From Nemertoderma westbladi (lineage: Eukaryota; Animalia; Xenacoelomorpha), in NCBI GenBank assembly GCA_032718475.1, contig JAUCBJ010006844.1, positions 1-64,000 of the forward strand: a DNA stretch of 64,000 bases, given 5' to 3'. The translations under genes and the position numbers were made by a program. The notes under the pieces are model-generated. The model was given only the letters and a program-made list of their open reading frames with translations, was not told the DNA's origin and made no database searches. Shown one piece after another: positions 13,921 to 43,978 of this stretch (position 1 is its first letter; each line of letters opens with the position of its first letter).

Positions 13921-16521
13921 ATGGACCCAAATCGCCAAATTATCGGCGAATTACGTAATACGATAGATCTACTGGAATATCCACAACCTGGATCCCCTAA
14001 CTTTGATACAAATTGGAGCACCCTGATAAATGAGAATGTGCGAGTCGTCAAATTCTCCGGGCGAGAGGGACCGGATTCCCGGAATCTACGAGCCCTCCGG
14101 TTGGCCGATGCTAGTACGAGACTGAAAAGAACTCGGAACGCAAAGGCTACCGGAGGGGATGAGTTGTCGTATTGGGAAACGTTTCGGCAAAGCGTCTACA
14201 GATCCCGATGTTTGATATACGACAACGAGGGAAACGCGACGCCCACCTCGAAAGCGATGACGTTGGCGCGATGTCAAAGTTTCGTCGACGACAAGAGTAC
14301 GTACCTCGCCCACTGGGGAAACCTAGCGGAGTGTACGGCAACGCTACGAGAGGAACGTATATCGATCATCCAGAATCGCGACGACTACCAGGAAAAGTAC
14401 GGGGCGAAAGAATACGGTCGATCCTTGGTCGTCGTCCTCGGAACCCTGGACGGTTTGGTATTGGTGTGTCGAATATTCCCGACACCCAGACAGGAAGTGC
14501 AGGCAGCCGGAGCGATCTGGTTGCTACCTCCGGAAATCCAAAAGATCCTCTTCGACTTCGACGTCATTAAAATCGGGTCGGATATAAAAGCGGACGTCCG
14601 GAACGACTACGCGAACGCTCCTTTAGGAAGAGACCGTAAAGGAGATCTCAATGCCATTAGTCATTGCATCGACACCCAGACACTACTAGCCTGGTTACGA
14701 TCCGCCGAATTCATGCGAGGATTCCGCGAGGTGAGACAGACGAAATCCGGGATCGGCTACCTCGCTGTACTAAACGGCGGCATCGACTTTAAACCTCAGA
14801 AATTCCAGGACTATAATAAGATATATGGTGGATACCCGGGATTGGAAATAAAGAGCGAGCGAGAGGGTCGATGGAAGGACGTTGACAGGAGGTGGACGAT
14901 ACACCAAAGGTGGGAAAATCCCGATCGACGGAACTACATCTACGTCGTTATGGAGTCCTACACCGTTGCTAAGTTTATATGTAAAACTCTCGATAACCTC
15001 ATTACGGCGGTTCCTCTTTCCTTTGTCGACTACGACTGGAACGAGGTTATAAACCACGCGTTCAAAGCGGTCGAGAACATTACACCGGGAGAGACGAAAA
15101 CACTCACCGTTATCGATTCCTGGGACGAGAACGGACCTTACGACATCCCCACGATTACCGATCTTCTCGGTGCGGAGGAGCCTCTGATTTCTTCGGAAGG
15201 GGAAGAACTATGGCTACATGAGGGCGTTCTACTGTCTACCCCAAAGCGACCACTCGAGCCGGAAGCTGCATACGAACCGGCCGCCAAACGGGTTGCCTCG
15301 GCCGAACCTGCGACGGAAGCAGGTGCTTCCACCCCACTCGGCTCTGGTAGCCCTGCGAGGGAGTTAGTCACTACCTCCGCGTTGAGCGACTTCGGCGACA
15401 TATGCCAAAGGTTATCCCCATATCCTTTCCCGGGCGGCGAAGACTGGTCTTCGGAGATTCCGAGTACCAGCAATCAACGGACCCGCTCAGCGATACTGGT
15501 CGAGAAGGGTCCCAGCGCTGCGCCGACCCCCGAAGATCTCCTCGGAATCCCCCAGTCGAAAACCCCGGCACCTCTGCGCCGACCAGCGGTGACAACTACT
15601 CCCTCCATTCCACAGGATCCTATGCGGCTAACCCGATGGTACGCCGAGCAGACCGAATGGATCCACCGCCAGAAACGGTCGTCCGAGATGAGACCGGCAG
15701 GACATAAAGAAGGTTATCGGAGCGAGAACCTACTACGCCAAAGCCCAGCCTTTCGCGGGCTACCGGCCACCGCGAATATTCAAAAGAGCGACCGACGACT
15801 CGAGTATTACGTCGGCGTCCCGATTCCGATATTCCCCGGTCGAGAGATGCAGTTGGAGATATGCGCAAACTGCGGTTCGGAGCAGTGCCCACGCGGTAGA
15901 CGAAATCGGGTTACCGATTCGTGCCTACAGCTCCTCGGGATACTGTATTGCCCATACTGCGCGACATCGGGACATGATGTCTCGGTTTGTCCAATCCTTT
16001 ATAACCTCTGCACAACTTGCGGTTTCCGTGGACATTCCGCTAGCCCCCGCTGCTATATAAAATGTCCTACAAAAGACGTTACCGCTATGGGAAATATGGT
16101 CATGTTCGAAACATACGCAAACAGCCACATAAGGACCAAAGTGCGGAGAAACGCTCGGAATATCGCGCAGGAAATGGCATGCGGGTACTTTTCCTTCCCG
16201 GAACGCCTCCACACGACAGCGACGTTACCTTTCCACTACGTGGATCTGTTGCTGAGCGCCGGATTATTCGGCCCATTCGAAGTCCTTCGACGCTTATATT
16301 CGTATAAGGAGGAGTTTGGTGACGGAAAGTGGTTCCTAGAGGCGCGCAACACCGAGTTGGAAAGACGAACCGACATGATCCCGTTGCCATCGAAAGGAAG
16401 AGCCGCCAGGAGACAAGCCGAAACGTTGCTCACGATGGATATCGATGCTCCCCTACCAGCTCTAGCGATCGACGAGAGTCGACGGGCGAAGAGGAGAAAG
16501 GCGTATCAGAGAAAGAAATAG
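13921..16521 (+). CDS. Element B ORF3: DEDDy-like 3'-5' exonuclease + CCHC zinc knuckles, 866 aa
   Basis: ExoI-like IYDNEG; LPPEIQKILFDFDVIKIGSDIKAD (ExoII, WRN/EXD/RNase D-like); IDTQTL; SGIGYL; ExoIII-like YVVME; knuckles CPYCATSGHDVSVC and CTTCGFRGHSASPRC. Confidence 0.8.
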   Translation: MDPNRQIIGELRNTIDLLEYPQPGSPNFDTNWSTLINENVRVVKFSGREGPDSRNLRALRLADASTRLKRTRNAKATGGDELSYWETFRQSVYRSRCLIYDNEGNATPTSKAMTLARCQSFVDDKSTYLAHWGNLAECTATLREERISIIQNRDDYQEKYGAKEYGRSLVVVLGTLDGLVLVCRIFPTPRQEVQAAGAIWLLPPEIQKILFDFDVIKIGSDIKADVRNDYANAPLGRDRKGDLNAISHCIDTQTLLAWLRSAEFMRGFREVRQTKSGIGYLAVLNGGIDFKPQKFQDYNKIYGGYPGLEIKSEREGRWKDVDRRWTIHQRWENPDRRNYIYVVMESYTVAKFICKTLDNLITAVPLSFVDYDWNEVINHAFKAVENITPGETKTLTVIDSWDENGPYDIPTITDLLGAEEPLISSEGEELWLHEGVLLSTPKRPLEPEAAYEPAAKRVASAEPATEAGASTPLGSGSPARELVTTSALSDFGDICQRLSPYPFPGGEDWSSEIPSTSNQRTRSAILVEKGPSAAPTPEDLLGIPQSKTPAPLRRPAVTTTPSIPQDPMRLTRWYAEQTEWIHRQKRSSEMRPAGHKEGYRSENLLRQSPAFRGLPATANIQKSDRRLEYYVGVPIPIFPGREMQLEICANCGSEQCPRGRRNRVTDSCLQLLGILYCPYCATSGHDVSVCPILYNLCTTCGFRGHSASPRCYIKCPTKDVTAMGNMVMFETYANSHIRTKVRRNARNIAQEMACGYFSFPERLHTTATLPFHYVDLLLSAGLFGPFEVLRRLYSYKEEFGDGKWFLEARNTELERRTDMIPLPSKGRAARRQAETLLTMDIDAPLPALAIDESRRAKRRKAYQRKK

Positions 16522-16686
16522 AGGACCAGGATATTCCAGGAACATTTATATTGGACATTTATTTTTATATATATATTGAACTCTAGGCCAAATTAATCAA
16601 GACTATGCAATATTAAAATTTTGGGTTTTTTATATGGGAATGACCTACGCAAACTCAATCTACCGATAGACCTCACGAAGGTCATT

Positions 16687-16695: not shown

Positions 16696-18216
16696 TGTTC
16701 GCGGTATTTCAACTTTTCATAACGCGAGTTGAATATTTTTTGTATTTATTTAAAATGATTATTCCGATATCACTACTGGGTGCGGGACAGTGGGTTTTGG
16801 GCACACTCAATGAACTGGGGGCGATTTATGGGCGAATATTGGGGCGACTTACAGGGTACGGGACTCATTTCATGTATATAAGGGCCAGGGGGGGGAAGGA
16901 AAAGTTAAGCAGTATTCAGGTTTACCTGACTACTATTAGGCCTAGCCAACTTCCTGCTGCCTGTAGAGGTGGATTTGGTAACTCGCTAGGTCTAAAGGAC
17001 AAGGACTGCCCTTAGCGGTCCCTGGCAAACAGCAGTTATTACGAGCCTGAAAAGGACATCGGAAAGTCTGCTGCTTGTGTCAGGGATTTGCGACGGGAAA
17101 CGATGACAGACCCCGTAGCCAAGCCGTACTGGTTCTCGATGATCGTTCCCTTCGGGGTTCGTGAGGGGTGGGACGGACACGCAAAAGGGTCGACCGACTT
17201 ACAGAGGAAGGGTTTGACGAGGACTGCCCTTAGCGGTCTCTGGTCAACAACAGTTATTACGAGCCTGAAAAGGACATCGGAAAGTCTGCTGCTTGTGCAA
17301 GGGATTTGCAACGGGAACCGACGACAGACCCCTTAGCCAAGCCGTACTGGTTCTCGATGATCGTTCCCTTCGGGGTTCGTGAGGGGTGGGACGGACACAC
17401 GACAGGGTCGAAAGACAGAGGACTGGACTCTACTGGCCTACCGACTGTTCGGAGCAGTTTCTCGGCCGCCGAAGCGACTACGAGCCTGAATAAGGACTCA
17501 GAAAGCCTAGGTGGTTGGGTCTCTGCGATGAACCGACGGACCCCTAGCCAAGCCGTACTGTACTGGTTCTCGATGATCGTTCCCTTCGGGGTTCGTGAGG
17601 GGTGGGACGGACAAGCGAACGGGTCCACCGACACGACAGACTCCTAACCAAGCCGTACTGGTTCTCGATGACCGATCCCTTCGGGGTTCGAGAGGGGTGG
17701 TACGGATACGCGACAGAGTCTACAGACTGGACCGACCCTTAGCCAAGCCGTACTGGTTCTCGATGATCGATCCCTTCGGGGTTCGGGAGGGGTGGTACGG
17801 ACACGCAACAGGGTCGACCGACACCGACACTACGGCATCAAGACTAGGACCAAGGGAAAATCTGGGGAACATTAGTTAGGCTAAAATCTGAGCGATTTTT
17901 GGGTAATTAAATAATTTACTGTAGGGATTTATATTGTCGTGTATTATTATTGTGAATAATTTGGTGTATATTGGTTTGGGGAAGCCCAATTTATTCTCAA
18001 TCAAGGTTCAGTGAGATTAGCTCAAGGTTAAACCGTAGGGAAGTTACATTAAAGCGTATATCCAACCAATGCAGCTTTTTCTCAACCGCAATCTTGCATT
18101 TAAGAACATTCCTTCTCCACAATCAATATCCGGTGACTGGCCGGGATTCCGTGGTCTGTAAAGTTCCGCCTCCAGCATCGGCGTTTTCCCCCATGGTGTC
18201 GGGAATAACGGCAACA
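16696..18216 (+). repeat. 3' LTR of element B (1521 bp)
   Basis: Starts TGTTCGCGGTATT after the PPT, ends AATAACGGCAACA (imperfect terminal inverted repeat); last 143 bp match 5500-5642. Confidence 0.85.
17117..17801 (+). repeat. Five-copy hairpin repeat in the LTR (CCC-TTCG-GGG core)
   Basis: CCAAGCCGTACTGGTTCTCGATGA..CCCTTCGGGGTTCG.GAGGGGTGG.ACGGA at ~17117, 17335, 17546, 17648 and 17741. Confidence 0.9.
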
Positions 18217-21200
18217 GATAGATTTATTTATACATTATGTAAAAACAATAACAAATACACCAAACAATGTATGTCGGTATTGTCCAACATAACATATAGG
18301 ATTACCCCTAAAGCTTTGCAGCATATTTCCAAGGGGGTCCTTTATGTTACTTGGTTACAAATACAATATTACACTACGGTAACCTAAAACCCATATAAAA
18401 CGTAATTACACTATGTACATGTACAACTTTACCGAGAGCGTGACAATGTCCGACTCAACGATAAAGATGTAATGTACAGAACAATTTAATATAAAATGTA
18501 ATTACAGTATAAATAGTAAATAATTAATAAACTAATAACTTACTGTAGGACTATTGTACCTATTTTTACATTGCACACGGAGGTGAGATTTAACTGCAGA
18601 TTTAAAAGAATGTTGATTATCTAGGTTTTTAATTTCATTAGGCAGAGCGTTCCAATTTTTAATGCCGTTAAAAAAGAAAGTATAAGATTCAAAGGATTTA
18701 CAATTCGGGAGGTAGAAGTTTGAAGCACTAGCTCTGGTACTGTAAGAGTGTGTATCGCGTACTCTGTTGAATTTTTGTTTTAGTTAATTGGGACATTTAC
18801 CATTATACACTTTATGCACATGGTTAAGGCGTAGCTGCTTAACTCTACTATCTAAGTTAAGTAGTCCAGATTCAGAAAAGTCATCTGGAGTTAGGTGGTG
18901 CCTAGGGTTGTAGTCTTTAATAAATCGTACTACTTTATTCTGAGCTACTTGTAATTTACATTTAAGCTGTTTGGTTAAGCCTTCATACCACGAAGAGCAT
19001 GCATAGTCCATGTGACACTGTATTAAAGCAGAGCAAAGTAACTTGCGGGAGTCGGTGGTTAAACTATTTTTATTTCTGTATAGAAACCTAAGCCTACTGT
19101 TAACTTTCGAGAAAATATTTTTCACTGTGCTTTCTCCTGATAAGCAGTTATCCAATGTGGCGCCTAAATATTTAACTTCCTTTTTATTTTCAATCTTATG
19201 TCCATTACTAGTGACTTCAAACTTAGTTACCTTCTTTAACTTTCTTTTGGAACCAAACAAAATACTTTCAGTCTTACCGTAGTGAATGGATAGCTTATTA
19301 TCAACCAGCCACTCATTACAGGATTCTAGAACTGAACTTAACTTTTGGGAAATATGGATAGGGTCTTTATGAGAGAAAATAAGAGCACTATCGTCGGCAT
19401 ATAAAATGAGTTTAAAATCGGGATCTATACTACTTATCATATCATTTACATAGCATACAAAAAGCAGAGGACCTAATATACTACCTTGCGGTACACCACA
19501 GGTAATCTCGTGTACAGTAGACTGCGATTTGCTAATGACTACAGTTTGACTTCTGTCTGACAGGTAGGACTTGAACCAGTCTATAGAACCTACACCCATC
19601 AGGCCTAACTTACCAAGCAGAATTTCGTGATCTACAGTATCGAAAGCCATACATTACCATACCAGTATATAAACCCTTTGCGTTATTACATCTAATTGTA
19701 TCAGTTAAGTTAATAAGACAGGTGTCTGTAGAATATGATTTACGAAAACCGGACTGAAGTTCATAGATCAGATTTAGCCTACTAAGATGTGCTTCCAGCT
19801 GTAGAAAAACAGAACGTTCTAGAATTTTAGATACAATACTTAAGATACTAACAGGTCTGTAATTACAGGGTTCAACTTTACTATTCTTTTTATACAGAGG
19901 AACAACCTTAGCTAATTTCAGTTCGTCTGGTACTACATTATCTACGATAGAGTAATTAATAATAAAAGTAATAGGCACTTTAAGTACTTCAGCACCATCC
20001 TTAAGAAAACGGGCAGGTATTAGGTCTAGACCGGTACTTTTTGAGGCTGATAGGCTAAGTAGATTTTGAAAAACGAAATCCTCAGAAACGGGTTTTAAAA
20101 ACAACTTCTCTGAATTTTGTAACTTTTCTAAATAAAAATTATTTAGAGTTTCGGACTCTATTCTATATTTATTACTTGATAAAGGTAACATCTTAACTAA
20201 ATTAGAGGCAACATTAGTAAAATAATTATAAAATAAATTACTAACTAGAGTATGATCATGAATCAGCTCACCGTTATCTTGCAGAACAATATTCGATTTA
20301 GATTTAAGGTTTTTATAACCTAAAGATTTTAGGGTAGACCATTGACTTTTAGGATTATCTTTATTCTCACTTATTTTGTTGTACAAATATTCAGATTTAG
20401 CTTTTTTATCTCCCGTTGGACAAGGTTTCTATATTTGCAGATATTATTATAATCAGCTAAAACACGGTATTTCCTATATTTATACAAATAGTTATCTCTT
20501 TCTCTGATATTACTAAGAATACCCGAGGTCATCCAGGGCTCAGTGCGTTGTTTAAGACTAATTTCTTTAATTGGTGCTACAGTATTAAGTGCCTTTAAAA
20601 ATATATCTTTAAAAACAGTGTACGCAAGGTTAATGTCAGCGGCCTTAAAACAGGGTTCCCATTCGGAATTAACTAACAAACTTAAAAAGCGTTCCTTGCT
20701 GTAATTTTTCATAGACCTAACTGTTACTGTTTTATGATCCCCGAAAAAAGATTTTTGTGTCTTTCTAGTGCAAAAAACTATAAAATGATCGCTTAGACCT
20801 ATAGGTAAAACCCCAGATTGAGAAATAATATCGGTATTATTACAAAGGATGTGATCTAGTAAAGTAGAAGTTTTACTGGTAATTCTGGTAGAATCTCGAA
20901 TAATTTGTTTTAAACCAAACAAATTTAAAATACTTTGGTACTGTTTACAGATGGGGGATGCTTTGTGATGGTAACAGATATTAAAATCACCTAAGAAATA
21001 TATTTCACAGTCTGACCTAAGATCACATAAAATTGTATTTTCAAAATTTTGCAAAAAATCTGATTGTTTAGGGGGCCGATATAAAGTACCGATTAAAATA
21101 GGTTTAGTTTTAGGAAGTAAAAGTTCCACCAGTAAAACTTCGTCACAAGACTCTAAATCTTCCCTACGATTAAAAGCTAATCACATCGAATGTAAGTACA

Positions 21201-22300
21201 GACACCACCACCGTGTCTATCCCTATCCTTATGTAAAACTACGTAATTATCAATATAAATTTCTCCATCAGAAACGCTATCATCGAGCCAAGTTTCAGAT
21301 ATTGTTAAAACTGCTGGGTTGGATTTATTGATTAAAATACGAATTTCGGAAAGTTTGGGAAGCAGAGATCGTGCATTTAAATGCAAAAAATGCAGACCTT
21401 TTTTCTTAAAAAATTTAAAAGTTTCACTCTCAGCATCACTTGGAGTTTGCAGAGGCGATGTGAGGAATGAATCGTCGGTTTCTGATTCTAAAATAGTATC
21501 ATGAAAGGGAAGTTCGGTAAAAATACAGCTATTGCAGAGAAAACTTGGCTCAAGATTGTTTCTGGTGGAGAATAAATTACTGCTTTTCCTACGGTAACAT
21601 TTTAAATGTACAAATGTGTCACAACTCTCGCATTGGACGATCTTACTCCGAGAGTTTGTTCCTCGTTGACAGACGGGACAGTTGATCTTCGGGGCCCGCG
21701 TCCTGCTGGGTCCAGGGTTGGTCTCAATATCCCCAGCCAGAGACAGAGTTTCGCTATTAGGCCTCTAGTTCGTGGAGCGGAGACCCAAGATCTTCTTCCC
21801 CGACGAGAGCAGTACAACAGTAGAGGCTAAATGCACTCGTCGACCACATCTCCGTCGATTCGGCGCGGCAGTTCGAAACGGTAGCGACAGGGTGTTCGGT
21901 AAACCAGTCCAATACGGGTATTGGGTGGGTTGCAGGGTTACCCCGCGGATCGGATGGTTCTGCCACAACGAAACGGCCCAGAACGATGACAACTGTGGAG
22001 ATTAAGAGCGGTGACATTGTGCTATCTGGCTGTAGTCTGACTTAAAGATAAAAACTGTATAGGCCTAGTACCGGTATCTTTCTTGGTCTTATTGTCGGCA
22101 GGCCTACAGTTGTTCGCGTTGTTATTGAAACTACCGAGATGAAAGTACCGAGATAACTTTAGCTCGTTACTAAGTTCTCAGTTTTATCTCTGGACTATGA
22201 AGAAACGGTGTTCTTGGAAAAATCAATAAGATTAGTACCGGTACTAATACTAAATAAACACCTTAGTCTATCAGCCTTCATGAATACCATTCTAACTTGG
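18217..22300 (-). mobile_element. CR1/L2-group LINE (2A-PHD-APE-RT), frameshifted; 5' boundary approximate
   Basis: GDIETNPGP then PHD (CPVC..CESC..HLKC..CNSC); APE (HLNARSL, ISETWL, GDFN, LDH, SDH); RT (NYRPVS, AFDTVDH, GVPQGSILGP, YADD, YLG); AATAAA and short tail next to 18217. Confidence 0.9.
21708..21734 (-). other. 2A-like (StopGo) ribosomal skipping motif GDIETNPGP
   Basis: Minus strand GGGGATATTGAGACCAACCCTGGACCC, in frame with the downstream PHD finger; matches D(V/I)ExNPGP. Confidence 0.85.
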
Positions 22301-22619: not shown

Positions 22620-24495
22620 CACTGCAGGTACCACTTTGCAGCGTTGCGGCCTATAGGTCGGAATGCTGCAAAGTAATCAATGACATGGAAACAACTTCAA
22701 TTACCATATTCCAGAATGTATTATTTCCATTTATGTTAATTGAGTGCTGCTTTATTATCCAGTTTGCAGTGACGGGACTACAGGACTAGCATGTAAATAA
22801 TTGTTTAATGTGTTCTGTATTCCTTTATGACGAAACATCCAATAGACGACACTTCAGAGAAAATGAACAAAGAAAATGGTGACAGTGTTCAGTAAAACTG
22901 AACGGACACAGACGATGACTCAGATTACTTCAGTCGACTATAGTCAAGATGGATTTATGATTTACTACATCCAGGCAGGAGATAACTTTCAATAAACTTT
23001 AATTATTAGATTTAAATGTATAATTAATACTGTGTACCTGTTGATAAATTTCACTTCATCATCGTCGTCATTCATTAGGGAGTTGTTGAGTCATTCATTG
23101 GGGGTTTAGATTGCTTTGTAAACACAATGGAAATTTAATGTAAATCGAAAAAGTTATTATTTCGTGAAAATTATAATAAAAATTTCCTTTTTTTGGACCT
23201 CAAGCCGTACCGCAGTTAACCAATAACTTTATATGTTATTAAATTATTAAATGTGAGAAATAACAAGAGCAACGCCCTTAAAAATAACAAACCACCCTGA
23301 AATTTTAGATCAACCAGATCCTCCTGTACAGTATTAAAAACTCAAACTCCAAATTTCTGGCCTATGTAAAGTTATACCAAACTTTCTGTTCCTGTTATAT
23401 TCCACTTTGCAGTTTACCACCATGTGAAGAATACCAGGTTTTCACCAAAACTACAATTTGCAGAAGGGCTGAATCTAACCAAAACAACAAACTAATTAGT
23501 ATATGTACAGGCTATACAATAGAAATAAGCGCTATAAAACACTTAATTAAGGAGAAATTTGGAGAAAATACAAATTATTAATATATAAAATTCCAGTAGA
23601 ATTTCGACCGAAATGTGAAATCCTGGTATATATTATTCAAATGGGCGAAATTCATGGATTCACAACCCACGTGATTGTCAAGTTTGTCCAGTTCCATTTA
23701 GCAAACAATTCCATACAATTACAAATAGCAAAACGTTCCAGAATAATGTATCAACGTCCAGATGAAACGGACGATTTAAAATGCCATCAAACAATCGATT
23801 ATTAGTTTGCAAAACTCGTCTCCCTATGTCAATTCTTTACCAAAATTGGTGAGATATAAAGCCAAAATTTGACACTAGCTAATATTCTAGAACATTTTAA
23901 CTTTAGTAAATTTGTAGGGGTGCTGCGGGGGAAAACAATTTCCACAGTGTTTAAGTATGTAATCTATACTAGTTCTGGCCTGATGTTTAAGACGCCTCGG
24001 TTTGAACTATTATGTATTACTTTTAGTCCACAATATATAACGTGAAAAAAGTTCACAATATATAACGGGAAAAAAGTTTAAAAAGATTCCTATAATTGGC
24101 CATTACTGGAGATTTTACCCCAATAATTTTCCATCAATAAAATATTTCAAGGTATTTAGCTGGTGTTTTTCAATAGCAGGGCGGTTTTGCAACGGGTAAA
24201 CTTTATGTTGAGATAAATAATATCCTTCCGGGAAATATATAAAAACTAAATCATTTAATTTATATGGCCGTTTTCAACTACCGTGATCCTATCTACTTGT
24301 ACTGCTGCTACTTCCCTCGCTACGCTCGATGCTGTCGCTGTACCATTCATACGGACCTGGCGGCGAAACCGTCGCGTTCCTTCTGTAATAAGGAAGTACC
24401 AGATCCGAGTTGGTACAGGCCACGGATTCCTTGTCAGAATTATCCCCACAAACATCCACGACAATGTCCTCAATAACATCATCAAACATGGATGA

Positions 24496-25470: not shown

Positions 25471-25479
25471 ATAACCGAC

Positions 25480-30780: not shown

Positions 30781-31783
30781 GTGAAATATTTCCACCAGGA
30801 CCACTTCAGGGAGATGCACGAGAGACGAGTGGTCGGGACCTACAGGACGCCGTCGCTGGACAACTCGATCCTCGAGCATTTTCGCTACGTAGTGAAGGGA
30901 GATGAAGCGAAGTTCGGGATACCAAAGTATCTGAGGCAACCACCGAGAAAGGAATGGAGGAGGTTTGAGGAGTCTGAGTAGGGGCGGATACATGGTCCTA
31001 GACGACGAGGGGACTGTGGAGGACGACAAGGGCTCGAGAAGAGGGTCAGCGGGATCGGCAAGAACCATACTACTGCATTTGGCTGCACCAAATGGAGACA
31101 TCTTTCTCTTCGATCTAGGAACCTACGGGAAGAAGAGCGGGCCGAAGTTAAACTGGTTGCCAAGGGTGGTGCAGGACCTAGTGAGGGAGAAGACTACGGT
31201 GAAGGTGGGATCGGCGATCCACGACGATGCGGAGATGATCGTCGGACCGGAGACCCCCAACCTCCTGGACATGCAAGCAGTCTATATGGCCATAATGGGG
31301 CCAGACGGGTTGGGATTGGTAGAGAACACAGGACATTGCGGAGCAGTGGCGATGGGTCAGCTCATGGGGCTCGTCTGCCACAAGCCGATGGACTGGGGTA
31401 AGTTCCGGGAGGAGTACGGAGTGGAGCTGGGGAACTCACTAAAATGGGGAGCGAGGCCAGGGAAACAGGAAGTGTATCAGTTCCAAAAGGGAGCGATAAA
31501 GATATATCAGAAGATATATATCCTACAGGAGGATTGGATAATGATAGGTTTACTAAACCTATTCATGGCCGTGGTTATCGGAAGAGAGCCAATGGCGTTT
31601 CTGCTATCAGGAGCACCTCTAAACTACAGAAGAGCCTTTAAGGTGGCCTTCACATGTCTGGTAGACCACCCGGGGCTGAAGGCCGAGTCGGTGTACTACG
31701 ACAGCCGGCACCTAGTAGACAGAGAGGTGGATACACCATACAAGAGATGGGAGAATATGAGATGGTCCTTCGTCGTTTGGTAG
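30781..31783 (+). pseudogene. Third homolog of the ORF3 exonuclease, frameshifted and 3'-truncated
   Basis: WRRFEES/(frameshift)LSRGGYMVLDDEG; LPRVVQDLVREKTTVKVGSAIHDD; LDMQAV; YILQED. Motif spacing identical to ORF3 of elements B and C. Confidence 0.75.
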
Positions 31784-33672
31784 GCTCGCAAGCCTTCCAT
31801 GAAGTCGTAGGTTTTGGTGTGTCTCGTTCTAACTTGTGGGTACTGCCCACAAGGTTTGCTTGTCTTTCGGTAGGCTCGCAAGCCTTCCGCGAAGTTATAG
31901 GTTTGAACAGATAGCATAGTTATAGGTTGAACAATGTGTCAACGGTTGTGTAAAGTCAGGTTTAATCGTAGTCAGTCTGTAAATGACTGGGTTCACGCAG
32001 CACGTCACAGGTTTAACTGGTAACGGCTTACTCACCTGTTTGATTGTCATAAATATAGGTTTGTCTCTCTTTACAAGTAAACTACGGCTTACTGTAGGTG
32101 GACTACTTATCTTACCTGTGAGAATCGGCGATGAAGTCGCTCGTGGCTGCAGAATTGATTCCGATATAACAAACCTGTTACCTCGCACGGGTGATATTTC
32201 CATCAGCTTCGCAACTATGATCAGTTTTACTGGAGTTGTGGGTTTGAGCATAGGAATAACTTGGGGAAAACGTTGACAGTAATCCTCGACAAACTCCTCT
32301 CCTCGATCTATCGCTCCTACACTTCCTTCCTTGATTCGCTTCTGAATTCCGCAATATCGAGTCTCCATGCGATCCAGGGCAGACAAGTCATGTCCAGCTC
32401 GAGACCTTATAGATCTATCTCTCGCGTCGAGTTCGAGGTCTTCCTTTGCGTTCGCGACCTCGCGCGATCTACGATTCAGTTCGAACTGAAGCTGCATCTC
32501 TCTTTCGCGTTGATCGTCCTGCTGCTGTTGCGCGGCTAACTACGCTTCCCGTAGAGCTAAACGAGCGTTTATCTGTCGCACTTCTAGTTTGGCACGTGCA
32601 TCAGAAGCCGCCTTGTTTCGTGCTAACTCGGCTGCCGCTGTTTGTCACGCCAACTCCTCCTCCAATTTGCACATTTCTGATGCTTCAAATTCGGCTTGGG
32701 CATGAAGTTTAACGATTTTTGCTTCATCTTCCCGGCGTTGCCTTTCTCCTTCGATGGCAACTTGTGCCATCTGCCGTTGCGCTTCCTCCTCGGCGACTTG
32801 TTGTTGGCGTGTGATCTCCTATTGTTGAGTAATCACCGACATCGTCCTACTAATGTCAGCTTGTGCGCTAACCGTACGCTAATGAACGATCTATCCAGTT
32901 GTGGAATTTGGTAGGCTCGCGAGCCTTCCATAGTTAGAACTTCCATCGTCCCACGCGGTTCAACTTCTGGTTCTTCGATCGGTACGCCACATCTATGAAG
33001 CAAATTGGTGAGCGTCTCTAACCTCCCGTCCAGACAGTATAGTTCTTCTTCATCTTCGGGTTGCAACAACGCGTCGGAAACAGACTCACCCATCAGCTGG
33101 TCGAGTTGCTCTCATTGAGCCGATCCTACAACTTACTTAAACTGAATGAGGCTTTCCCTCGCACTTACCAACTTATCAATTATCCTTACCTGGGTAAAGT
33201 TGTCACCATGCAACTCTGCGAGTTCGTGTAAACCTTTAAGTTTATCTACGGAGGAATTAACCCTACTTTATATTCTTACTTGTAAGGTGTAGAACTCGTA
33301 TCTCGACATCGGGGTGGTTAATTCGCGCAAAACACGAAAACCTTCTCCGAAATTTCGAGTAATCTGGGCCATGTATCCTCCTATACTCCTAATAACATTC
33401 TCTTGGCTTCCAGCCAAACTTACCATGTCCGGTTCACGCGATCTGGTCTGCAGGATGGTAAGGAAATCTTCGATTCTGCTGTCGCTACGCGTTGTGGCCT
33501 CTGGTATTTCCATTCGGGGTACCGGCGACGCACGCGGTTTGACATCGGTAGAATCTTGGGTTCTCCTTCTCGGTTCATCTACTGTCGATCTGTCCGGGTC
33601 GCACGAGTCATAGTCGGTAGGTGGGTATCGAGTCGAATGTGGTGTATCACTCATGTCTATTATATACGTCAT
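31770..33672 (-). pseudogene. Decayed gag-like N-terminal region of a probable fourth LTR element
   Basis: IGGYMAQITRNF resembles LRAHAGHITRTA (element C gag) and LGALKGGITRAY (element B gag), followed by coiled-coil-like segments; broken into several ORFs. Confidence 0.5.
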
Positions 33673-35788: not shown

Positions 35789-37102
35789 TCACATCTCACT
35801 AACCTGACATCTAAAAGCGAACACTGCAATCAGACCGAATATAAATGGTAACCCAAACAAACTGAGAAGCGAGGAAGCAACTTCCATACCAAAATAATCA
35901 TTGAAGAATCCACCAAGAACAGGACCTGTAATAGCACCAATAGATTGTGCAATTCTAAACATTTGTTGGAGAAGTGATCTGGTATCAACATTATCGTTAT
36001 AACCACAAATATTAATCGTTAGTTGTGTTTGTGTTTCCACCCCAGGTGTTTCGTTTAGTCCATTACCGAATCCAAGGAGAGCACATCCAGTGACAGAGAT
36101 GGAGAGAACATGAGATAAACCCAATAGCTCTGTAGGACCAATTAGTTGCATTGACACTGCTAGTAAAATTGCACCAAATACAGTTGGTATGATGGTCTTC
36201 AATTTATTCATCATTAAGGACATTATTAGACCAGTAGAAGCATAAAGACCTGGAAATATCATATAAATACGACCAATATTGTACTGGTTAACATTGTAGT
36301 TGTGGTGAATGTAGGCAGCATAGTTTGCAAAGGTGAAGGATGACAATAGTCTGGAATATATATTCAAAATAAATATAAGTGAAATAGCAGGATTTCTCAG
36401 AAGCCCAATATAAGTTGGTCTATCTTTCGATTCAGATCTGTCGTAAATATAACGTGGCGACTCAAACCAGCAGTAAAGGAGAATAATAAGAAACATCAAA
36501 CCCGATATTATAAAGGGGAACTCAAATCCCAATGAAACAAAAATGGTTGAACCAAAAACTGGTGAAACCATAACTCCCACAGTGCCAGAAACCATAGCTA
36601 AACTGGCTAATAAAGTTCTTTGTTCAGGCCACAACTCCATCAATAGACTGTATGAATACATATAACTGATGTTGAGTCCAACTGCTTCTAAGGTGCGCAG
36701 AGAAAAACAAGCAAATATATATAATCCATCGTTGTCTTTTGGAATGTATTCTACAAACCCGAATGCCAACTGCGAAACTGCCCCAATAATTCCAAATAGG
36801 CCCAAAGAGATACGAATTCCCCAATTCTTTATAGAATGAGGGCAACTAATGTATATTATAAGTCTGACCATAGAAAACATTGCCAATAATGCACCAATAA
36901 GAGTCTTCGACCAACCACGCTCTTCTACAACAATTGGGAAGAATGTTTCCAGTAGATTCTGACACCAACCTGGTATCATTTGATACATTAACAACATGGC
37001 GACCAACATGTAAAGTCGCCAGCCCTTTCGCTGGCTAGTCTGATTATTATTTGTTTCATCACATGATATAAAGGAAGCAGCTCCTCCTGACATCTTGTAC
37101 AT
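35789..37102 (-). CDS. Intronless MFS transporter, SLC18B1-like, 437 aa
   Basis: About 12 hydrophobic segments; MFS-type motifs LRTLEAVG, GVMVSPVFGS..F..LGFEFPF, IGAITGPVLGG. Subfamily assignment is by resemblance only. Confidence 0.8.
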   Translation of the reverse strand: MYKMSGGAASFISCDETNNNQTSQRKGWRLYMLVAMLLMYQMIPGWCQNLLETFFPIVVEERGWSKTLIGALLAMFSMVRLIIYISCPHSIKNWGIRISLGLFGIIGAVSQLAFGFVEYIPKDNDGLYIFACFSLRTLEAVGLNISYMYSYSLLMELWPEQRTLLASLAMVSGTVGVMVSPVFGSTIFVSLGFEFPFIISGLMFLIILLYCWFESPRYIYDRSESKDRPTYIGLLRNPAISLIFILNIYSRLLSSFTFANYAAYIHHNYNVNQYNIGRIYMIFPGLYASTGLIMSLMMNKLKTIIPTVFGAILLAVSMQLIGPTELLGLSHVLSISVTGCALLGFGNGLNETPGVETQTQLTINICGYNDNVDTRSLLQQMFRIAQSIGAITGPVLGGFFNDYFGMEVASSLLSLFGLPFIFGLIAVFAFRCQVSEM

Positions 37103-37600: not shown

Positions 37601-39779
37601 TGATAAACAACCGCGACCTCTATACTAACAGCAGAACTGTTGAACAGACCAATACCCGTTAATATCCTTCTGCCAACCTAATAAGTTCTCGTCTAACCAA
37701 TAAGACACAAAGACTGCTCTACTGTTAAGTAAAGGGGCTCAGGAGCGTGATATTACTAAATTGTAAGGGTTGCTAAATACAAAACCGCTACTTACCGTTA
37801 GATGGCGCTAATCTGCCGTCCACTAATATATTTTACTAATTTTACACAACTCCTGCAAAATCGCTTGTTCCTTTCTCTACCGATTGCTCAATAGAGAGCT
37901 AACTGTTCGAATCTATGAGCCACGCGGGAATAACCAAAACAATAAACCCGAGTCGGCTCCCTAAGCTTACTTAAGACGAGTGCGAGAGGCCTTGCACTCA
38001 GAGTATTCTTACGCCTAATTTTATCACTATTAAAGCACGCTATTACCTACGTCTTTCTAATCGCGAATACTGGAGGTTCCCTAACGTAATGTGTGAATGC
38101 GAGAATATTTAAAATATCAAAATGGTACAGTATCTGTTTCTACGTGGATAATACCACTCCGAGTCTAAAACTGCCCGCGACTGGCTTTAGGCCAGCAAAA
38201 TTACTAGCGTATCGTGCGTACCGAATAGTGCGTTCTAGCTGATTGCCCGCTAATGCAAATAACCGCTCAGCGTGAATAGTTTACAGTACACTAATTATTA
38301 CCTTAGCTACTCTCCGCTATGCTGCGTACTAATTCTTAATTTTTTACTAATTAATTACAGTCACAAATATTTAACAGCGTACTAATTACTAAGAGTTCCA
38401 GAATACGTAATTCTAATTTATCACGCAACAGGTTTCGCTAGTAATAGCCTAAATTGCCGTATTACTTTGACCTAATCAATAACTAATTATTGTAACTAAG
38501 AAATAGAAATCAATCAAAGGAAAAAGAGCGCCTATCTAAGCATTCGTAATCTTAGGCACACTTCAATAACACACCAATCAGCGTTAGAAATCACAGTTTA
38601 CAATTGTGCAATTCACTACTCGTACTCCACACTCAACGTTTTAATACGCGCAGGCCTCTCCCGGGTACATCTAGGATTCCTAACTAACCCAATTCCTGCC
38701 CCCCTAATACTAAATAGAGACAAAACCTGGATCATCAGCCCCCTAGATACTGTACCGGCGATCGGTCTGCGTGCCGCAGTGCAAGATACCCGCCCGCAAC
38801 GGTGACCCTGGCCAGCGTTGCCCGCTTTGAATCCTCCGCTCTCTCCTAGTCGCTCAACCCCCCGATGCGCCCACCGCCCACTGGCACCTTAGCCCTCCAT
38901 GATGCTAATAGCTACCGTAGCGGCGCATGCAAATCACAAAGTCTGACAGTCTCAGGAATCCCTTGGGATTATTGCGCAGAAAAGAATCACATAGAACCAT
39001 CAATCAAAGGTAGAAATCATAGTTCGATTGTAATTTGCAGTAATCGAAGGAATTATTGAGAAACACAAGCAAAGTAATCGCACTAGCAAATCATTCCAAG
39101 AAATTAATCAAAATTAGCAAATTGCAGAAAATACGATATCCTAATACAAAATTAGAGACAGCTCAGCAAGTAAATTGTAACAGGGGTGTGTCATGTGATA
39201 AGGCATGAACATATGAACAAATATATGAACAACAATATGAACAACAAAAGGCCCTACCGGCACACCGCCAATTTATAGGTGATCCGGATGGGGTGATGCA
39301 ATAAGGTGACTCAATCGCTCTCCCATTGGCTCTCCAGTCCATGCTAGCATTAAACCAACCTGGAAGCAGTTAATCCAATAAGGAGACCGGATTGTAGCCC
39401 TATGCCCTCAAATTATTACCATATATGGTAATGGATCACGTCTCTGGCTGCTGAATGGCCAGGACAGCGTCCCTATATGCTAGCCCTATCAAACTAATAT
39501 CAGCAAGCACAAAATCCAGGGTCCGAGTAAACTCGCTACCCTGGAACTATCTACATATATCCTAATACAAAATTACGTAGGTAGGGCTACATACTATACA
39601 AAATGAATGGATGCAAAATATATGGGCGTTTTAACTTCCTTACCTAAATGTCACCACACTGCGCCTTATCTAAATAATTATACTGCACAACAGACTAATA
39701 TTACGTACAGTATAACGGACTAATACTGCATACTGCATAATGGACTAATACTGTGGATACAGCGCCATATACCGTAACA
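37601..39779 (-). repeat. 3' LTR of element C
   Basis: Direct repeat of 54448-56626; I noticed only two C/T differences (~37690, ~39252). Weak purine tract GGAGCGG precedes it on minus. Confidence 0.97.
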
Positions 39780-40269: not shown

Positions 40270-43200
40270 TTATCGACCCGCTCCTGGGTTCTTTGGGCTC
40301 GCTCCTCTCTTCCGCCCCCTTCCCAGATACACTAATCGTCCTCTAGTCGACTCCGTTGACGGCGTCCGTGAGGCGTCACTCCCCGGAACCGGCGACGACG
40401 TTCCCTGAGCCCCGACAGATTCTCGGCTCGAACTTCTCCCTCGGCCTCGTCCCAATTGTCGCGCTCCCGTGGTCGCTTCCGCCAACTCTTCCTTCTGCAG
40501 TTGCACACGCGCTTTCTCAGACGCCCCCTGCGCCTTGCGCTGCAACCGTTGCGCTTCTATAATAGAGTGGTAGTGGTCGTCCTTGACTTGACGCTTGTCT
40601 TGGACCCCTCCTCCTGGTTCTTTCCGCGAGCCTTGAGCTCCAGCGGTCGTCGCTGTGGTCGCTGCGATCCTTTGTTCCTGTATCCTCTCGGCGGTCAATG
40701 AACCCACTGGCACATGAGTCAACAAGAATTCGTTGCGGTATTGTATAGCCGCCATCCTCCAATCACCTCGCGCGCGTACCACTTTTCTAGTCTCCGTAAA
40801 TACACCCTTCGTGATGCGATCGCAAATAGCAACGAAGTTCCATGTGTACTTATTGTCCATGTTCAATTGTCTGAAGTATTCTCGGACTACGATAACTCCA
40901 GTGTTCTGTGGAAGGTCTTGAGAAGTTAGGATGAGCTCCTGATATTGTGGTAGCGATTGAAGATATGGCTCGTACGCAACATGCGATGGGTCTACCGCCC
41001 AAAACCCATATCCCGCTTTAAATGGTAACCAACGCATCTGCGCTTGAATATGGTAATCCGCCACACTCTCCCACTTATCTAACATCTCCCGAAGTAGGTT
41101 AGCGCTATGGTTTTGAAAGGAATCATCTCGCAGCTGACATCTCGCGCTACGGTGTCCTTTTACTCCACAATATCCACATTGAGAAATGAAGACGGTGCAC
41201 GTGTGAAACGAATGGTCGGTCTCATTGCACCAACGACAGACCTTATGCGCCGCCTCTATTACCGCGTCGCACGACTTTAGATTGTGCCTTGTGCTGCCGC
41301 ACAATTTGCACCTACGCGCTTGTGGAAACCAGGCCCTCTCGTATATGAGGTCTCCAATCGGTTTCGCACTTCCTTCCTTCCCAATGTCTAATACGATGTC
41401 GTCCTCTCCGGTCAACGGTTGTCGATCCGGAACAAAGTAAACATCCTCGCCCTTGTCCTCTATCTCCAATATTTCCTCCCGCGTTCGTTTCGGATATGTC
41501 TTCTCCACCGGAAGATCTACTCCGAACACCTCTACTAAAGTCTCCGGCCAGCCCTCCTTAACAGGTCTATCAGCCTCCGAGTGGAAGGGAGTACCAAACC
41601 CGCGGGTTTGATTCCCGAACCACTTCTCCAAAGCTTCTGGCGTCGGATATTCCATCGACGGTCGGTCTCCCAAATCTCCGATGTTCTGTCGATATACTCC
41701 TTCGAATATCGCTAATCCTCTCCTCACCATCGACGTATTCTCTAACGACTGGTTGAAGAACGGGGTTAAGAAACGCTTCATCACGTCGGATTGGATTCCC
41801 CCTTTCGAGCGAACGTATTGATCTCCTCCGAATACCAATGGATGACGCTTCAAAACTCGCGCAACGATATCCGCTAATAAACAAGTCACCGTGTTCGACT
41901 CAAGCACCAAATAATATTGTAGCGACGCACGGGGTGGCGCGCAAATGTTCCAATACACTAACGCTTGCCGCTTGAAGTGGGATTTGAACTCCGCTCCCGG
42001 TGGCGTGTTGTATTCGCCATACGCCTCCTCGTACTTCTTTTGCGTCTTCAACTTAAAGTCCCAATTATACAACAAGTGTGCTATAAAGCCCATACCAGTC
42101 TTGGCAGAGTTGGGATACTCCCTATAAATTCCAATATCCTGTGCCCATAGCAACAATAGCTTGGTGTCGACAAACGGTCTCGGCAATCTATCTTCCAGAT
42201 CAGTCATGGCGTTGAAGTCGCTCTCCAAATCGCTCTGGACTCCCGATCCCACCTTGACGTAATCTTGGTTGAGAATAGCCTCTCTAACCTTCTTTGGGTA
42301 ACATCCTGGCGTCGATACGCTCCGCTCCGTGCATACCTCCTCGCCTGCATACCTCCAAAATCTGTTCCCTAGGATCCTTCCCCTTCCGATATTGTGTCGT
42401 TATGATGGGCTCCGGTCTCTCTCTATCCGCCCTCACAAGCATAAACACATGAGTCACACCATCGGCCGCACGAATTTGAATACACTTGCTGGTCAAACAT
42501 TCTTGATGGGACCCTCCTTCATTGTCGTAGAACATCACCCTCCAATCCTGCAGTGATTCCTCCGTTTTCCTCCACTGACGCTGAATCTCATCTGATGGGG
42601 TCCACATGCGCTCGATCGCCTTGTGGTCATCATATCGGGTATAAGAACCCTTCCTCCTCAGCCACGTCTGGTCTACCTCCTCGTCGTCTGGGAATGTAGC
42701 CACCGCGACCCATACCTTGATGTACTTATCCAACCATCCGAATAACTTACTCTCCTTCCCCGGAGCTCCAATCTTGTCCAAAGTGTCGTAATCTGTGATC
42801 TGCATTGGGACATCATGCAAGAACTTCGCGCATAAAACTTCCCGTAGACAGTCAACGTTCCAATGGTCCGCCATTCTTACCATCGGCAAGAATCGTATCG
42901 CTTCTCGCGACTCCGGATGATCTACTAATATCGCAGGTTCGGTACCGTCGGAATAATACACCGGTCCGGGTTGAGATACGACCTGTGGAACAAATCCGGT
43001 CACTCTCCTCGTCTCCTCTTGATGTCTATCCGCGGTCTTATTATACTCCGCTATCCTGTTCTCAAATAACTCCTTCGCCTTCGCCGCTCGCTCCTCCTGC
43101 CGCAACGCGTCTATGTCGTCCTGATGCTCAGGCGTGAGGCTTCTCACTCGGTGAGGTGAAGTAAACGCAGTCCAGGGACTCGAGAGCTCCAAACCCGCGG

Positions 43201-43978
43201 GTTTGGTACCCGAGTCCCGCGCCGCTTCGCGCCGCGCCTCTAGATCCTTGTAGGCTCGGTACAGCGAAATGGCCGCTGCCGTCTCTATCAAACTGGGTGT
43301 CGAACAGGGTTTAATCTCCGTATACGGATCTAATGTCGTAACGGTCGGCGTAATGGGTCTCGGAGGTCGCTTTCCGCTGAAGTCGATACTGATCATCGGG
43401 TTGCTCATCGGGTAACCTCCCTCGTTGTATCTAAGGAATTGGTGAGCTGGACATCGCGTTAATATCGGTTCCGGATGTTGCTCGTCTAGTCGGTCGGGAA
43501 TCGCCACGTCCTGTTTATTCATGCATTCACCACACTTGTAGAAGAGCTTGTATACGCTGAAGACTTTCGGCGTCTCCTGATCCTCGCCTCGAGTCCTCCG
43601 ATACAGGTGCATTCCGTCGAACTGGTCTCGGACTGCAGGTAGAGGCTCCTCGTGTCGTAAATACATATTCATATGGTATAGTCGTGCGATTTCCTCGTCC
43701 GGATCTGCGCTAATGTCGCACACGTCCAAAGCAAAGTCGTAGGGATACCGCGTGCGATACTCTCTCCGCAAGACTTCCATCCGGTCCCCCAACGCTCTCA
43801 TTCTTTCTCTCCGTAATTCTTTATCATAACTTGGTTTATACTTCCCGTTCGGCTCCATCACGGACCGCCCATGGTAGTAAACGTTAGAGTCTTTACATCC
43901 TGGTCGCGCGAATGGTAGCTCCGCCTCCTCTCTGGCAGTAAATCCTCTGCGCGGTTGCGCTCTAATATCCCTCTCCAT
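40270..43978 (-). CDS. Element C ORF3: 3'-5' exonuclease + three CCHC knuckles (~1235 aa if one extra base at ~42293 is removed)
   Basis: WRKTEESLQDWRVMFYDNEG; repaired LPKKVREAILNQDYVKVGSGVQSD; VDTKLL; TGMGFI; YLVLE; knuckles CKLCGSTRHNLKSC, CRWCNETDHSFHTC, CGYCGVKGHRSARC. Confidence 0.8.

What the first reader, a model, noticed from the sequence alone, without database searches (positions are those of the whole stretch)
13921..43978. BEL/Pao lineage carrying a conserved accessory 3'-5' exonuclease + zinc-knuckle protein (three divergent homologs)
Seen: ORFs at 13921-16521, 30781-31783 and 40270-43978 are far diverged yet keep identically spaced motifs: W-x15-D-x-E-G (IYDNEG, VLDDEG, FYDNEG), LP-x13-K(I/V)GS-x4-D, a D(T/M) helix and Y-x3-E. 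In B and C these are followed by CX2CX4HX4-5C knuckles and a shared E-x2-A-x2-H..R..G(Y/F) tail, and the ORF sits between integrase and the 3' LTR where env would be, with no transmembrane segment. Established: the motifs match DnaQ/DEDDy exonucleases (RNase D, WRN-exo, EXD, Mut-7/Nibbler); as I recall, DEDDy extra ORFs have been reported in some other LTR elements (e.g. bdelloid rotifers), so novelty needs checking. Inference: an old, selected element-encoded RNA-binding nuclease for primer/3'-end trimming, RT proofreading or countering piRNA silencing.
Basis: partly seen in the sequence, partly recalled or inferred. Interest (0 to 1): 0.88.

Follow-up and report, generated by a model that had tools for sequence, protein, structure and literature searches.

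The report
BEL/Pao retrotransposons with own exonuclease gene
Two jumping genes (BEL/Pao retrotransposons) in this window carry, where an envelope gene would sit, an extra gene for a predicted 3'-to-5' exonuclease with zinc knuckles, and both have a primer site that is complementary to their own terminal repeat rather than a typical tRNA site, so the enzyme likely trims the element's own RNA into the primer that would start copying.

Summary
Three diverged copies of one gene lie in the window. Two (A, 13921-16521; C, 43978-40270) sit between integrase and the 3' LTR of BEL/Pao elements and carry zinc knuckles. B is a truncated, frame-broken fragment without knuckles or proven context; C has one frame break.

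A profile of the three exonuclease-like domains found 27 unnamed relatives. Fifteen share the knuckle module, and one is fused to a BEL/Pao Gag-protease. The family profile matches EXD2 (E 8e-13), WRN, Egalitarian and trypanosome RNase D, and a relative's model has the DEDDy fold (Z 15.2). The window copies have Glu, not Asp, as the fourth acid. Differences among copies are mostly synonymous (18 of 23; 21 of 34).

New here: neither element has a tRNA-type primer site; each has an 11-12 nt complement of its own LTR. The likeliest role (about 0.35) is trimming the element's RNA into a self-primer; rivals are anti-silencing, proofreading and non-catalytic RNA binding. DEDDy extra genes are known in rotifer LTR elements; I found none reported for BEL/Pao. 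New variant of a known kind.

The parts
13921..16521 (+). ORF3 of element A, intact, 866 aa: DEDDy-type exonuclease domain (about aa 85-365, with a 52-aa insertion after ExoI), low-complexity linker, zinc-knuckle + tail module (aa 648-759)
14221..14955 (+). Predicted active-site residues of A: D101, E103 (ExoI), D225 (ExoII), Y341 and E345 (ExoIII; Glu in place of Asp)
   Evidence: HMM alignment to 26 outside relatives
15862..16197 (+). Zinc-knuckle module and conserved tail of A
6080..12671 (+). BEL/Pao gag-pol of element A (several frame breaks): triple Cys-His box, protease, RT (YVDD), RNase H (DAS), integrase
   Evidence: Pfam Peptidase_A17 1e-38, DUF5641 5e-28, Integrase_H2C2, Asp_protease_2; motifs
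5500..5642 (+). Truncated 5' LTR of element A (last 143 bp), 98.6% identical to 18074-18216
5645..5656 (+). Primer-site position of element A: no TGG at the LTR edge; 12 nt exactly complementary to 17990-18001
16696..18216 (+). 3' LTR of element A (TG...CA; start inferred from a G-run before TG; end fixed by identity with the 5' remnant); single TATA-like box at LTR position 180
17990..18001 (+). LTR segment of A complementary to its primer site (candidate self-primer)
30781..31783 (+). Fragment B: exonuclease domain only (D at 31001, ExoII D at 31226, Y/E at 31517/31529), frame break upstream of ExoI, truncated, no knuckles
37601..39779 (-). 3' LTR of element C (2179 bp)
40270..43978 (-). ORF3 of element C (about 1235 codons, one frame break): about 460-aa N-terminal extension of no known family, exonuclease domain (about 42574-41880), linker, three knuckles + tail (41310-40999), low-complexity end
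44734..53175 (-). BEL/Pao gag-pol of element C (one in-frame stop before integrase in this copy)
   Evidence: Pfam Peptidase_A17 3e-39, DUF1759 4e-9, DUF5641 2e-17
54436..54446 (-). Primer-site position of element C: no TGG; 11 nt exactly complementary to LTR positions 1128-1138
54448..56626 (-). 5' LTR of element C; 2 differences from the 3' LTR in 2179 bp; 5-bp target-site duplication flanks the 19,026-bp element; single TATA-like box at LTR position 503, only ATTAAA at 1135
55489..55499 (-). LTR segment of C complementary to its primer site, overlapping the only ATTAAA of the LTR (candidate self-primer)

Best explanation
Elements A and C are BEL/Pao retrotransposons whose third gene encodes a predicted DEDDy-type (EXD2/WRN-like) 3'-5' exonuclease joined to a zinc-knuckle module; both elements have a primer site complementary to their own LTR, and the protein likely binds the element's RNA and trims its 3' end back to the paired region to make a self-primer for reverse transcription. 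Shown: element anatomy, homology, family architecture, the fold of a relative's model, an excess of synonymous differences among copies, and the primer-site complementarity. Inferred: catalytic activity with Glu as the fourth acid, an RNA substrate, that the complementary segment lies near the RNA 3' end, packaging into particles, and the trimming step itself. The confidence given is for this specific mechanism; that the gene is a selected, element-borne DEDDy-fold protein is about 0.93.
For: Family and fold: 27 relatives from a profile of window sequences only. The family profile hits EXD2 at E 7.9e-13, T. brucei RNase D 3e-4, WRN 9e-4 and Egalitarian 4e-3. The AlphaFold model of relative P0002 has pLDDT mostly 80-96 over the exonuclease domain and about 90 over the knuckle module; best structural matches are Nibbler Z 15.2 (rmsd 3.2, 198 aligned), WRN 13.8, EXD1 13.6 and RNase D 13.6. 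ExoI D and E are kept in 26 of 27 relatives and ExoII D in 24 of 27. Knuckles were not in the query, yet 15 of 27 relatives have the C-x6-C-x2-C-x3-G-H unit. In T. brucei RNase D a C-terminal zinc-finger domain boosts RNA binding and trimming (PMC7797062, section 13). Link to BEL/Pao: A and C, and P0024, a BEL-type Gag-protease in one ORF with the exonuclease and knuckles, which fits delivery into the particle. Selection: 18 of 23 and 21 of 34 listed differences are synonymous versus about 0.3 expected (p 2.5e-6, 6e-5). Self-priming signature: no TGG at either LTR edge; an 11-nt (C) and a 12-nt (A) exact complement in each element's own LTR, with different letters in unrelated LTRs; null rates 0.0003-0.006 (C) and 0.0005-0.011 (A). 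The only TATA-like box lies about 600 (C) and 1100 (A) nt upstream of the segment, and in C the segment overlaps the only ATTAAA. This points to the RNA 3' end, where a poly(A) tail and overhang would have to be removed.
Against: No activity, expression or substrate data. All three window copies have Glu at ExoIII, a residue that binds metal directly and is nearly essential in T. brucei RNase D (PMC7797062, section 16); 20 of 27 relatives have Asp, 5 have Glu, 2 lack the site. The fold was modelled on a relative; the window protein folded alone gave pLDDT 32. The outside profile did not align C's ExoI strand; I assign it by identical spacing to A. Only two elements show both traits, which may co-occur by shared ancestry. 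Self-priming is documented in Tf1 (PMC4600332 passages), where, as I recall, RNase H alone releases the primer. Earlier AI notes report self-priming BEL/Pao elements in other genomes without mentioning an exonuclease (unchecked). In A no canonical poly(A) signal sits at the expected distance. Transcript ends are unmapped, so a Tf1-like 5' primer or a purely structural stem remains possible. Only 1 of 27 relatives shows a BEL/Pao link; the context of the other 26 could not be fetched.
Confidence: 0.35

Rival explanations
1. The protein is an active exonuclease that counters host RNA silencing by degrading or over-trimming piRNAs/siRNAs or element-derived duplex RNA.
For: The closest folds include small-RNA pathway proteins Nibbler and EXD1. 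Both families are present in many divergent copies (10,430 and 6,600 contigs laid in run X1). The gene is a separate ORF like viral accessory genes. A silencing role was entertained for rotifer DEDDy ORF3 (PMC5408684).
Against: Best sequence match is EXD2, not Nibbler or EXD1. It does not explain the Gag-protease fusion in P0024 or the self-complementary primer sites. Mature piRNAs are 2'-O-methylated (recalled), which usually hinders such enzymes.
Confidence: 0.25
2. The exonuclease works on DNA during reverse transcription, either proofreading for RT on an unusually long template (element C is 19 kb) or polishing cDNA ends before integration.
For: The DEDDy fold includes Pol I proofreading domains and WRN. 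EXD2 acts on both DNA and RNA depending on the metal (PMC6648332 abstract). Element C is longer than the 2-15 kb range used for full-length BEL/Pao in PMC3118150.
Against: Retroviral-type knuckles (weak Lin28/nucleocapsid matches) and the RNase D analogy point to RNA. The gene is not fused to RT in any sequence seen; P0024 has no Pfam hit to RT.
Confidence: 0.15
3. The domain is a non-catalytic RNA-binding adaptor, like EXD1, Maelstrom or Egalitarian, that localises or packages the element's RNA.
For: ExoIII is Glu in all window copies. Top Foldseek hits are Egalitarian-BicD complexes on localised RNAs, one of them I-factor mRNA. EXD1 and Maelstrom are described as inactive DEDD derivatives (PMC5408684).
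Against: Four acids and the Tyr are kept across sequences only about 20% identical. The Asp-to-Glu change is conservative, and the seven Glu-bearing sequences in question fall on one side of one branch even with that column removed (SH-aLRT 83, bootstrap 31: weak), which looks more like a retained variant than decay.
Confidence: 0.15
4. The gene is a host exonuclease fragment captured by chance and carried neutrally.
For: Two of three window copies are broken. Rotifer env- and GDSL-type ORF3s showed mostly neutral variation within the genome (PMC5408684).
Against: Synonymous excess in both families. The same two-domain architecture is kept at 29% identity between A and C, while RT is 41% and integrase 34% identical, and in at least 15 outside relatives. 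Contigs of other copies in two DNA runs show a length difference inside C's overlap, so the break is not fixed in the family.
Confidence: 0.04

Closest known systems
DEDDy ORF3 of bdelloid rotifer LTR retrotransposons Juno and Vesta, and of Athena/Terminon elements (Rodriguez et al. 2017, PMC5408684)
   Same: Extra ORF downstream of pol in the env position; RNase D-like DEDDy homology; acidic residues retained; no transmembrane segment; function untested, 3'-end processing proposed.
   Different: Those carriers are the Juno and Vesta clades with dUTPase, not BEL/Pao. Their motif variant is DEED, whereas here it is D-E-D-E. No triple-knuckle + tail module is described there (only a Cys-His-Cys motif in two families). 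Sequence relationship to this family was not tested.
EXD2 (PDB 6k17) and the WRN-exo / Nibbler / EXD1 / Egalitarian group of DEDDy domains
   Same: Best profile match (E 7.9e-13), including the N-terminal strand-Trp-helix lead-in and the W...Y-x3-D end; same fold.
   Different: No N-terminal membrane anchor (EXD2 has one, PMC6648332 abstract); an extra insert between ExoII and ExoIII; appended knuckle module; element-borne.
Trypanosoma brucei RNase D (TbRND, PDB 7c45; PMC7797062)
   Same: DEDDy exonuclease plus C-terminal CCHC zinc fingers; both parts hit by the family profile. Best functional analogue: the fingers hold RNA for 3' trimming.
   Different: Cellular guide-RNA trimming enzyme with four fingers close to the nuclease domain. 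Here a long disordered linker separates the domains, and a distinct conserved tail follows the knuckles.
Self-priming LTR retrotransposons (Tf1/Tj1, Tf1/sushi group, Tcn1, copia TAR; PMC4600332, PMC6317226)
   Same: No tRNA-type primer site; primer site complementary to a segment of the element's own LTR.
   Different: Those use the 5' end of the transcript. Here the segment lies far downstream of the only TATA-like box and may be near the 3' end. The carriers are BEL/Pao.

Membership tests
BEL/Pao LTR retrotransposons (elements A, C) | Pao-type domains and order PR-RT-RH-IN | tested here: met
   Pfam Peptidase_A17 and DUF5641 in both, DUF1759 in C, in that order; YVDD/YMDD and DAS motifs
BEL/Pao LTR retrotransposons (elements A, C) | Triple Cys-His box in Gag (PMC554778) | tested here: met
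   Read from the translations of both Gag regions
BEL/Pao LTR retrotransposons (elements A, C) | Two LTRs, TG...CA ends, target-site duplication | tested here: met
   Met for C: 2179-bp LTRs and a 5-bp duplication. For A only a 143-bp remnant of the 5' LTR survives and no duplication was found
BEL/Pao LTR retrotransposons (elements A, C) | Placement in an RT tree among named BEL/Pao clades | not tested
   No reference RT set was fetched
BEL/Pao LTR retrotransposons (fragment B) | Linkage to BEL pol and LTR | tested here: inconclusive
   Only an opposite-strand gag-like remnant next to it, weakly like A's Gag start (z 3.1, 4 of 300)
DEDDy 3'-5' exonucleases | RNase H-like DnaQ fold | tested here: met
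   Met for the family through relative P0002 and the profile that includes the window proteins; the window protein alone gave no usable model
DEDDy 3'-5' exonucleases | ExoI D-x-E and ExoII D | tested here: met
   A and B by HMM alignment; C's ExoII by HMM, its ExoI by spacing identical to A
DEDDy 3'-5' exonucleases | ExoIII Y-x3-D | tested here: not met
   Y-x3-E in all three window copies; D in 20 of 27 relatives. So DEDDy-like, not canonical DEDDy
DEDDy 3'-5' exonucleases | Two-metal 3'-5' exonuclease activity | not testable with these tools
   Needs an assay
EXD2 orthologues | N-terminal transmembrane anchor | tested here: not met
   No transmembrane-like stretch outside the beta-hairpin
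EXD2 orthologues | Domain-swapped dimer | not tested
   No complex prediction was run
Rotifer DEDDy ORF3 | ORF after pol without transmembrane segment | tested here: met
Rotifer DEDDy ORF3 | DEED motif; Juno/Vesta or Athena carrier | tested here: not met
   ExoII is Asp; carriers are BEL/Pao
Rotifer DEDDy ORF3 | Shared ancestry of the exonuclease | not tested
Tf1-type self-priming elements | No tRNA primer site at the LTR edge; primer site complementary to own LTR | tested here: met
   Host tRNA set not available, so half-tRNA priming is not excluded
Tf1-type self-priming elements | Complementary segment is the transcript 5' end | tested here: inconclusive
   Only TATA-like box is 600-1100 nt upstream; no raw RNA reads
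env genes | Fusion glycoprotein with transmembrane anchor | tested here: not met

The most novel reading that the evidence does not exclude
A lineage of BEL/Pao retrotransposons has abandoned tRNA priming and encodes its own primer-maturation enzyme: an EXD2-like exonuclease with a knuckle module that folds the RNA 3' end onto the primer site and chews away the poly(A) tail and overhang until it reaches the duplex, giving reverse transcriptase a paired 3'-OH. This would be a third way to start LTR reverse transcription, and the first function for DEDDy accessory genes of retroelements.
Probability: 0.25. Interest if true: 0.88.

Novelty: new variant of a known kind. Interest (0 to 1): 0.66.

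Why it matters
DEDDy accessory genes of retroelements were reported from rotifers with no known function. This shows an apparently separate, widespread and unnamed family (no Pfam model; 27 relatives in clusters under 50% identity) with a fixed exonuclease + knuckle design, under selection in multi-copy BEL/Pao families. It also supplies an intact natural protein and a concrete candidate substrate, the self-complementary primer site. That makes an open question (what do these exonucleases do for the element?) directly testable in vitro. If instead it suppresses silencing, it would be an enzyme-based transposon counter-defence.

Tried and rejected
No whole genome is held, so genome-wide linkage could not be counted. 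Pfam gave no hit for any window ORF3. PDB sequence search with A alone or the three-sequence profile gave nothing meaningful. Word-indexed protein searches found nothing or only the query's first sequence. Phage collection: no match. Single-sequence AlphaFold of A failed (pLDDT 32). The protein atlas held neither sequence.

Locus searches found no relative in viral contigs or prokaryote genomes, and one broken 3.3-kb metagenome fragment with no pol context. No RNA holder was listed; run X4 is only guessed to be RNA. The knuckle + tail module was not folded alone, so its fold is untested; its profile gives only weak knuckle hits (best E 0.009).

MAFFT placed the family's ExoI on a different strand of A. 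I rejected this because HMMER aligns D101/E103 with a 52-aa insertion and the spacing matches B and C. I considered a TGG-starting stretch about 70 nt into A's leader as a tRNA site and rejected it as the primer site, because the repeat with the 3' LTR ends at 5642 in CA. I could not find a paper on Asp-to-Glu tolerance at ExoIII. Env, programmed frameshifting in C's ORF3 and neutral cargo were rejected as above.
Full report
1. What is in the window. The window is eukaryotic repeat-rich DNA with no whole genome held. BEL/Pao elements are described as metazoan only (PMC3601003, passage), so the host is likely an animal. Element C is a complete 19,026-bp minus-strand element: LTRs 37601-39779 and 54448-56626 differ at 2 of 2179 positions, end in TG...CA and are flanked by a 5-bp duplication. 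Its gag-pol has the Pao-type Pfam domains, the triple Cys-His box (defined in PMC554778, passages) and one in-frame stop before integrase. The extra gene starts about 750 nt after pol. Element A is a plus-strand BEL/Pao (6080-12671, several frame breaks) with an intact 866-aa extra gene 1250 nt after pol, a 3' LTR at about 16696-18216, and only the last 143 bp of its 5' LTR. B is a fragment with no pol or LTR beside it.

2. The observation. The two diagnostic motifs each occur exactly three times in six frames, both in each of these genes. A versus the 3' part of C scores z 16.5 and the 3' part of C versus B z 5.4 against 300 shuffles; A versus B alone is not significant (z 1.4). Corrections: the knuckles and tail are in A and C, not B; C is broken into two frames; B is truncated and frame-broken; the env-like position holds for A and C only. 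Contigs from other copies in two DNA runs show a length difference inside C's overlap, so that break is not fixed in the family.

3. What the protein is. Direct searches with the window proteins failed, and a single-sequence fold was unusable. An exhaustive HMMER search with a profile of the window's exonuclease-like domains returned 27 proteins at E up to 0.001 (best 5e-16) from 1.84 billion representatives. None of the 20 I looked up carries a name. Two of 27 hit Pfam DNA_pol_A_exo1 at about 2e-4, below its cut-off. The knuckles were not in the query, yet 15 of 27 have the C-x6-C-x2-C-x3-G-H unit, and 11 of 27 match a strict tail pattern; several of the rest are short and may be partial. The 28-sequence profile hits EXD2 (7.9e-13), T. 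brucei RNase D (3e-4), WRN (9e-4) and Egalitarian (4e-3). AlphaFold of relative P0002 on a 29-row alignment gives two confident domains joined by a disordered linker. Foldseek and VIA-align return DEDD exonucleases at the top: Nibbler Z 15.2, WRN 13.8, EXD1 13.6, RNase D 13.6. The viral library gives the same fold with no close viral donor.

Active-site columns over 27 relatives: D-E-D-D in 19, D-E-D-E in 3, three other variants, two incomplete. All three window copies have Glu at ExoIII. The seven Glu-bearing sequences (three window, four outside) fall on one side of one branch even with that column removed, but support is weak (83/31; P0010 and P0014 left out as short); one further Glu case (P0022) lies elsewhere. 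In T. brucei RNase D this residue binds metal directly, and Ala nearly abolishes activity (PMC7797062, section 16). Whether Glu is tolerated I could not document.

4. Linkage and selection. Besides A and C, relative P0024 joins a BEL-type Gag and protease to the exonuclease and knuckles in one ORF (Gag similarity to A z 23.6 and to C z 15.9). Context for the other 26 relatives was not obtainable. Both families are multi-copy, with thousands of variant contigs covering pol and ORF3 alike (summed depth is not a copy number). Of the 40 best-supported differences shown out of 318 for C, 23 lie in ORF3 and 18 are synonymous. Of 40 shown out of 1070 for A, 34 lie in ORF3 and 21 are synonymous (7 of 13 in the exonuclease domain, p 0.05). 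Expectation is about 0.3. This is a biased sample and not a formal dN/dS, but it argues against neutral cargo.

5. Neither element has TGG at the LTR edge. In C, leader bases 2-12 are the exact complement of LTR positions 1128-1138; in A, leader bases 3-14 are the complement of LTR positions 1295-1306. Three null tests give 0.0003, 0.0045 and 12 of 2000 for C, and 0.001, 0.011 and 1 of 2000 for A. The two LTRs show no BLAST similarity and the words differ, so each matches its own LTR. This is the signature of self-priming known from Tf1/Tj1 and some plant groups (PMC4600332, PMC6317226, passages), where the primer is the transcript's 5' end. I first read it that way. Unchecked AI notes on other genomes raised a 3'-end alternative, which I then tested here. 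Each LTR has one TATA-like box, 600-1100 nt upstream of the segment; in C the segment overlaps the only ATTAAA and is followed by a G/T-rich run; in A no canonical signal is at the expected distance. The start of A's LTR is inferred, and transcript ends are unmapped.

6. Mechanism. Most likely (0.35): the knuckle module binds the element's RNA, the RNA 3' region pairs with the primer site, and the exonuclease removes the unpaired tail up to the duplex edge, leaving a primer for RT. The closest working model is T. brucei RNase D, whose zinc fingers hold RNA for trimming (PMC7797062, section 13). Every step beyond anatomy, fold, selection and complementarity is inferred, and the link rests on two elements. 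Rivals: anti-silencing nuclease (0.25), RT proofreading or cDNA end polishing (0.15), non-catalytic RNA adaptor (0.15), neutral cargo (0.04).

7. Comparison with what is known. DEDDy ORF3s are known from rotifer Juno/Vesta LTR elements and Athena/Terminons, with a DEED motif and untested function (PMC5408684, parts 1-3 of 5 read, through the discussion; PMC6431247, passages; PMC6338049, part 1 of 4). Six searches for an exonuclease in BEL/Pao and two for self-priming in BEL/Pao listed no paper describing either. In one search the word exonuclease did not occur in the BEL/Pao surveys PMC3118150, PMC554778, PMC6238403 or PMC8556966 (listing; passages read for the first two). Passages of PMC8220671, PMC13524379, PMC3601003 and PMC5029228 added nothing on this; of PMC6648332 I saw the abstract only. 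Subscription journals, Repbase, Dfam and GyDB were not searchable and no supplements were read, so an entry there is not excluded. It works like a DEDDy RNase with RNA-binding fingers. It is not a canonical DEDDy member (ExoIII Glu), not an EXD2 orthologue, and not shown to belong to the rotifer family.

8. Verdict. Real, selected and apparently undescribed for BEL/Pao; a new variant of a known kind. Interest 0.66. The boldest reading, an element-encoded primer-maturation nuclease, has probability about 0.25 and would merit 0.88.

Noticed in passing
P0024 (unnamed relative, 1563 aa): One ORF joins a BEL-type Gag (DUF1759, triple Cys-His box), an aspartic protease, then the exonuclease and knuckles, with no Pfam hit to RT or integrase; possibly a non-autonomous element that kept the accessory gene.
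   Followed up: partly
window 54350-54447 (minus) and 5643-5700: Both leaders repeat the LTR-complementary primer-site word a second time about 85 nt (C) and 38 nt (A) downstream.
   Followed up: no
window 42600-43978 (minus): About 460-aa N-terminal extension of C's ORF3 with no Pfam match, open and carrying mostly synonymous differences; A lacks it.
   Followed up: partly
window 14235-14390: 52-aa insertion after ExoI in A that contains a stretch resembling the family's usual N-terminal strand, as if that element had moved.
   Followed up: partly
window 2094-5499: A third, truncated BEL/Pao pol, about 70% identical in DNA to element C over the RT region, interrupted by the remnant of A's 5' LTR.
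   Followed up: partly
window 31800-33660 (minus): Degenerate gag-like coiled-coil remnant abutting fragment B tail to tail; weak similarity to the start of A's Gag.
   Followed up: partly
window 35789-37102 (minus): Intronless 437-aa MFS transporter ORF (Pfam MFS_1; SLC18B1 structure 9d7u, E 3.5e-25) about 500 bp from element C's LTR.
   Followed up: partly
window 18784-21764 (minus): Frame-broken LINE with PHD finger, AP endonuclease and RT (Pfam), starting about 570 bp past the 3' LTR of A.
   Followed up: partly
window 24466-24703 and 24955-25466: Two arrays of a 15/17-nt unit in inverted orientation about 300-400 bp apart (foldback-like).
   Followed up: no
window 60867-63722: Long ORFs with no Pfam hit that look like a DNA transposase by recalled motifs (unverified), containing a 562-bp tandem duplication at 99.8% identity, possibly an assembly artefact.
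   Followed up: no
window 27100-28400: Degenerate non-LTR RT fragment with translated similarity to 56737-57875.
   Followed up: no
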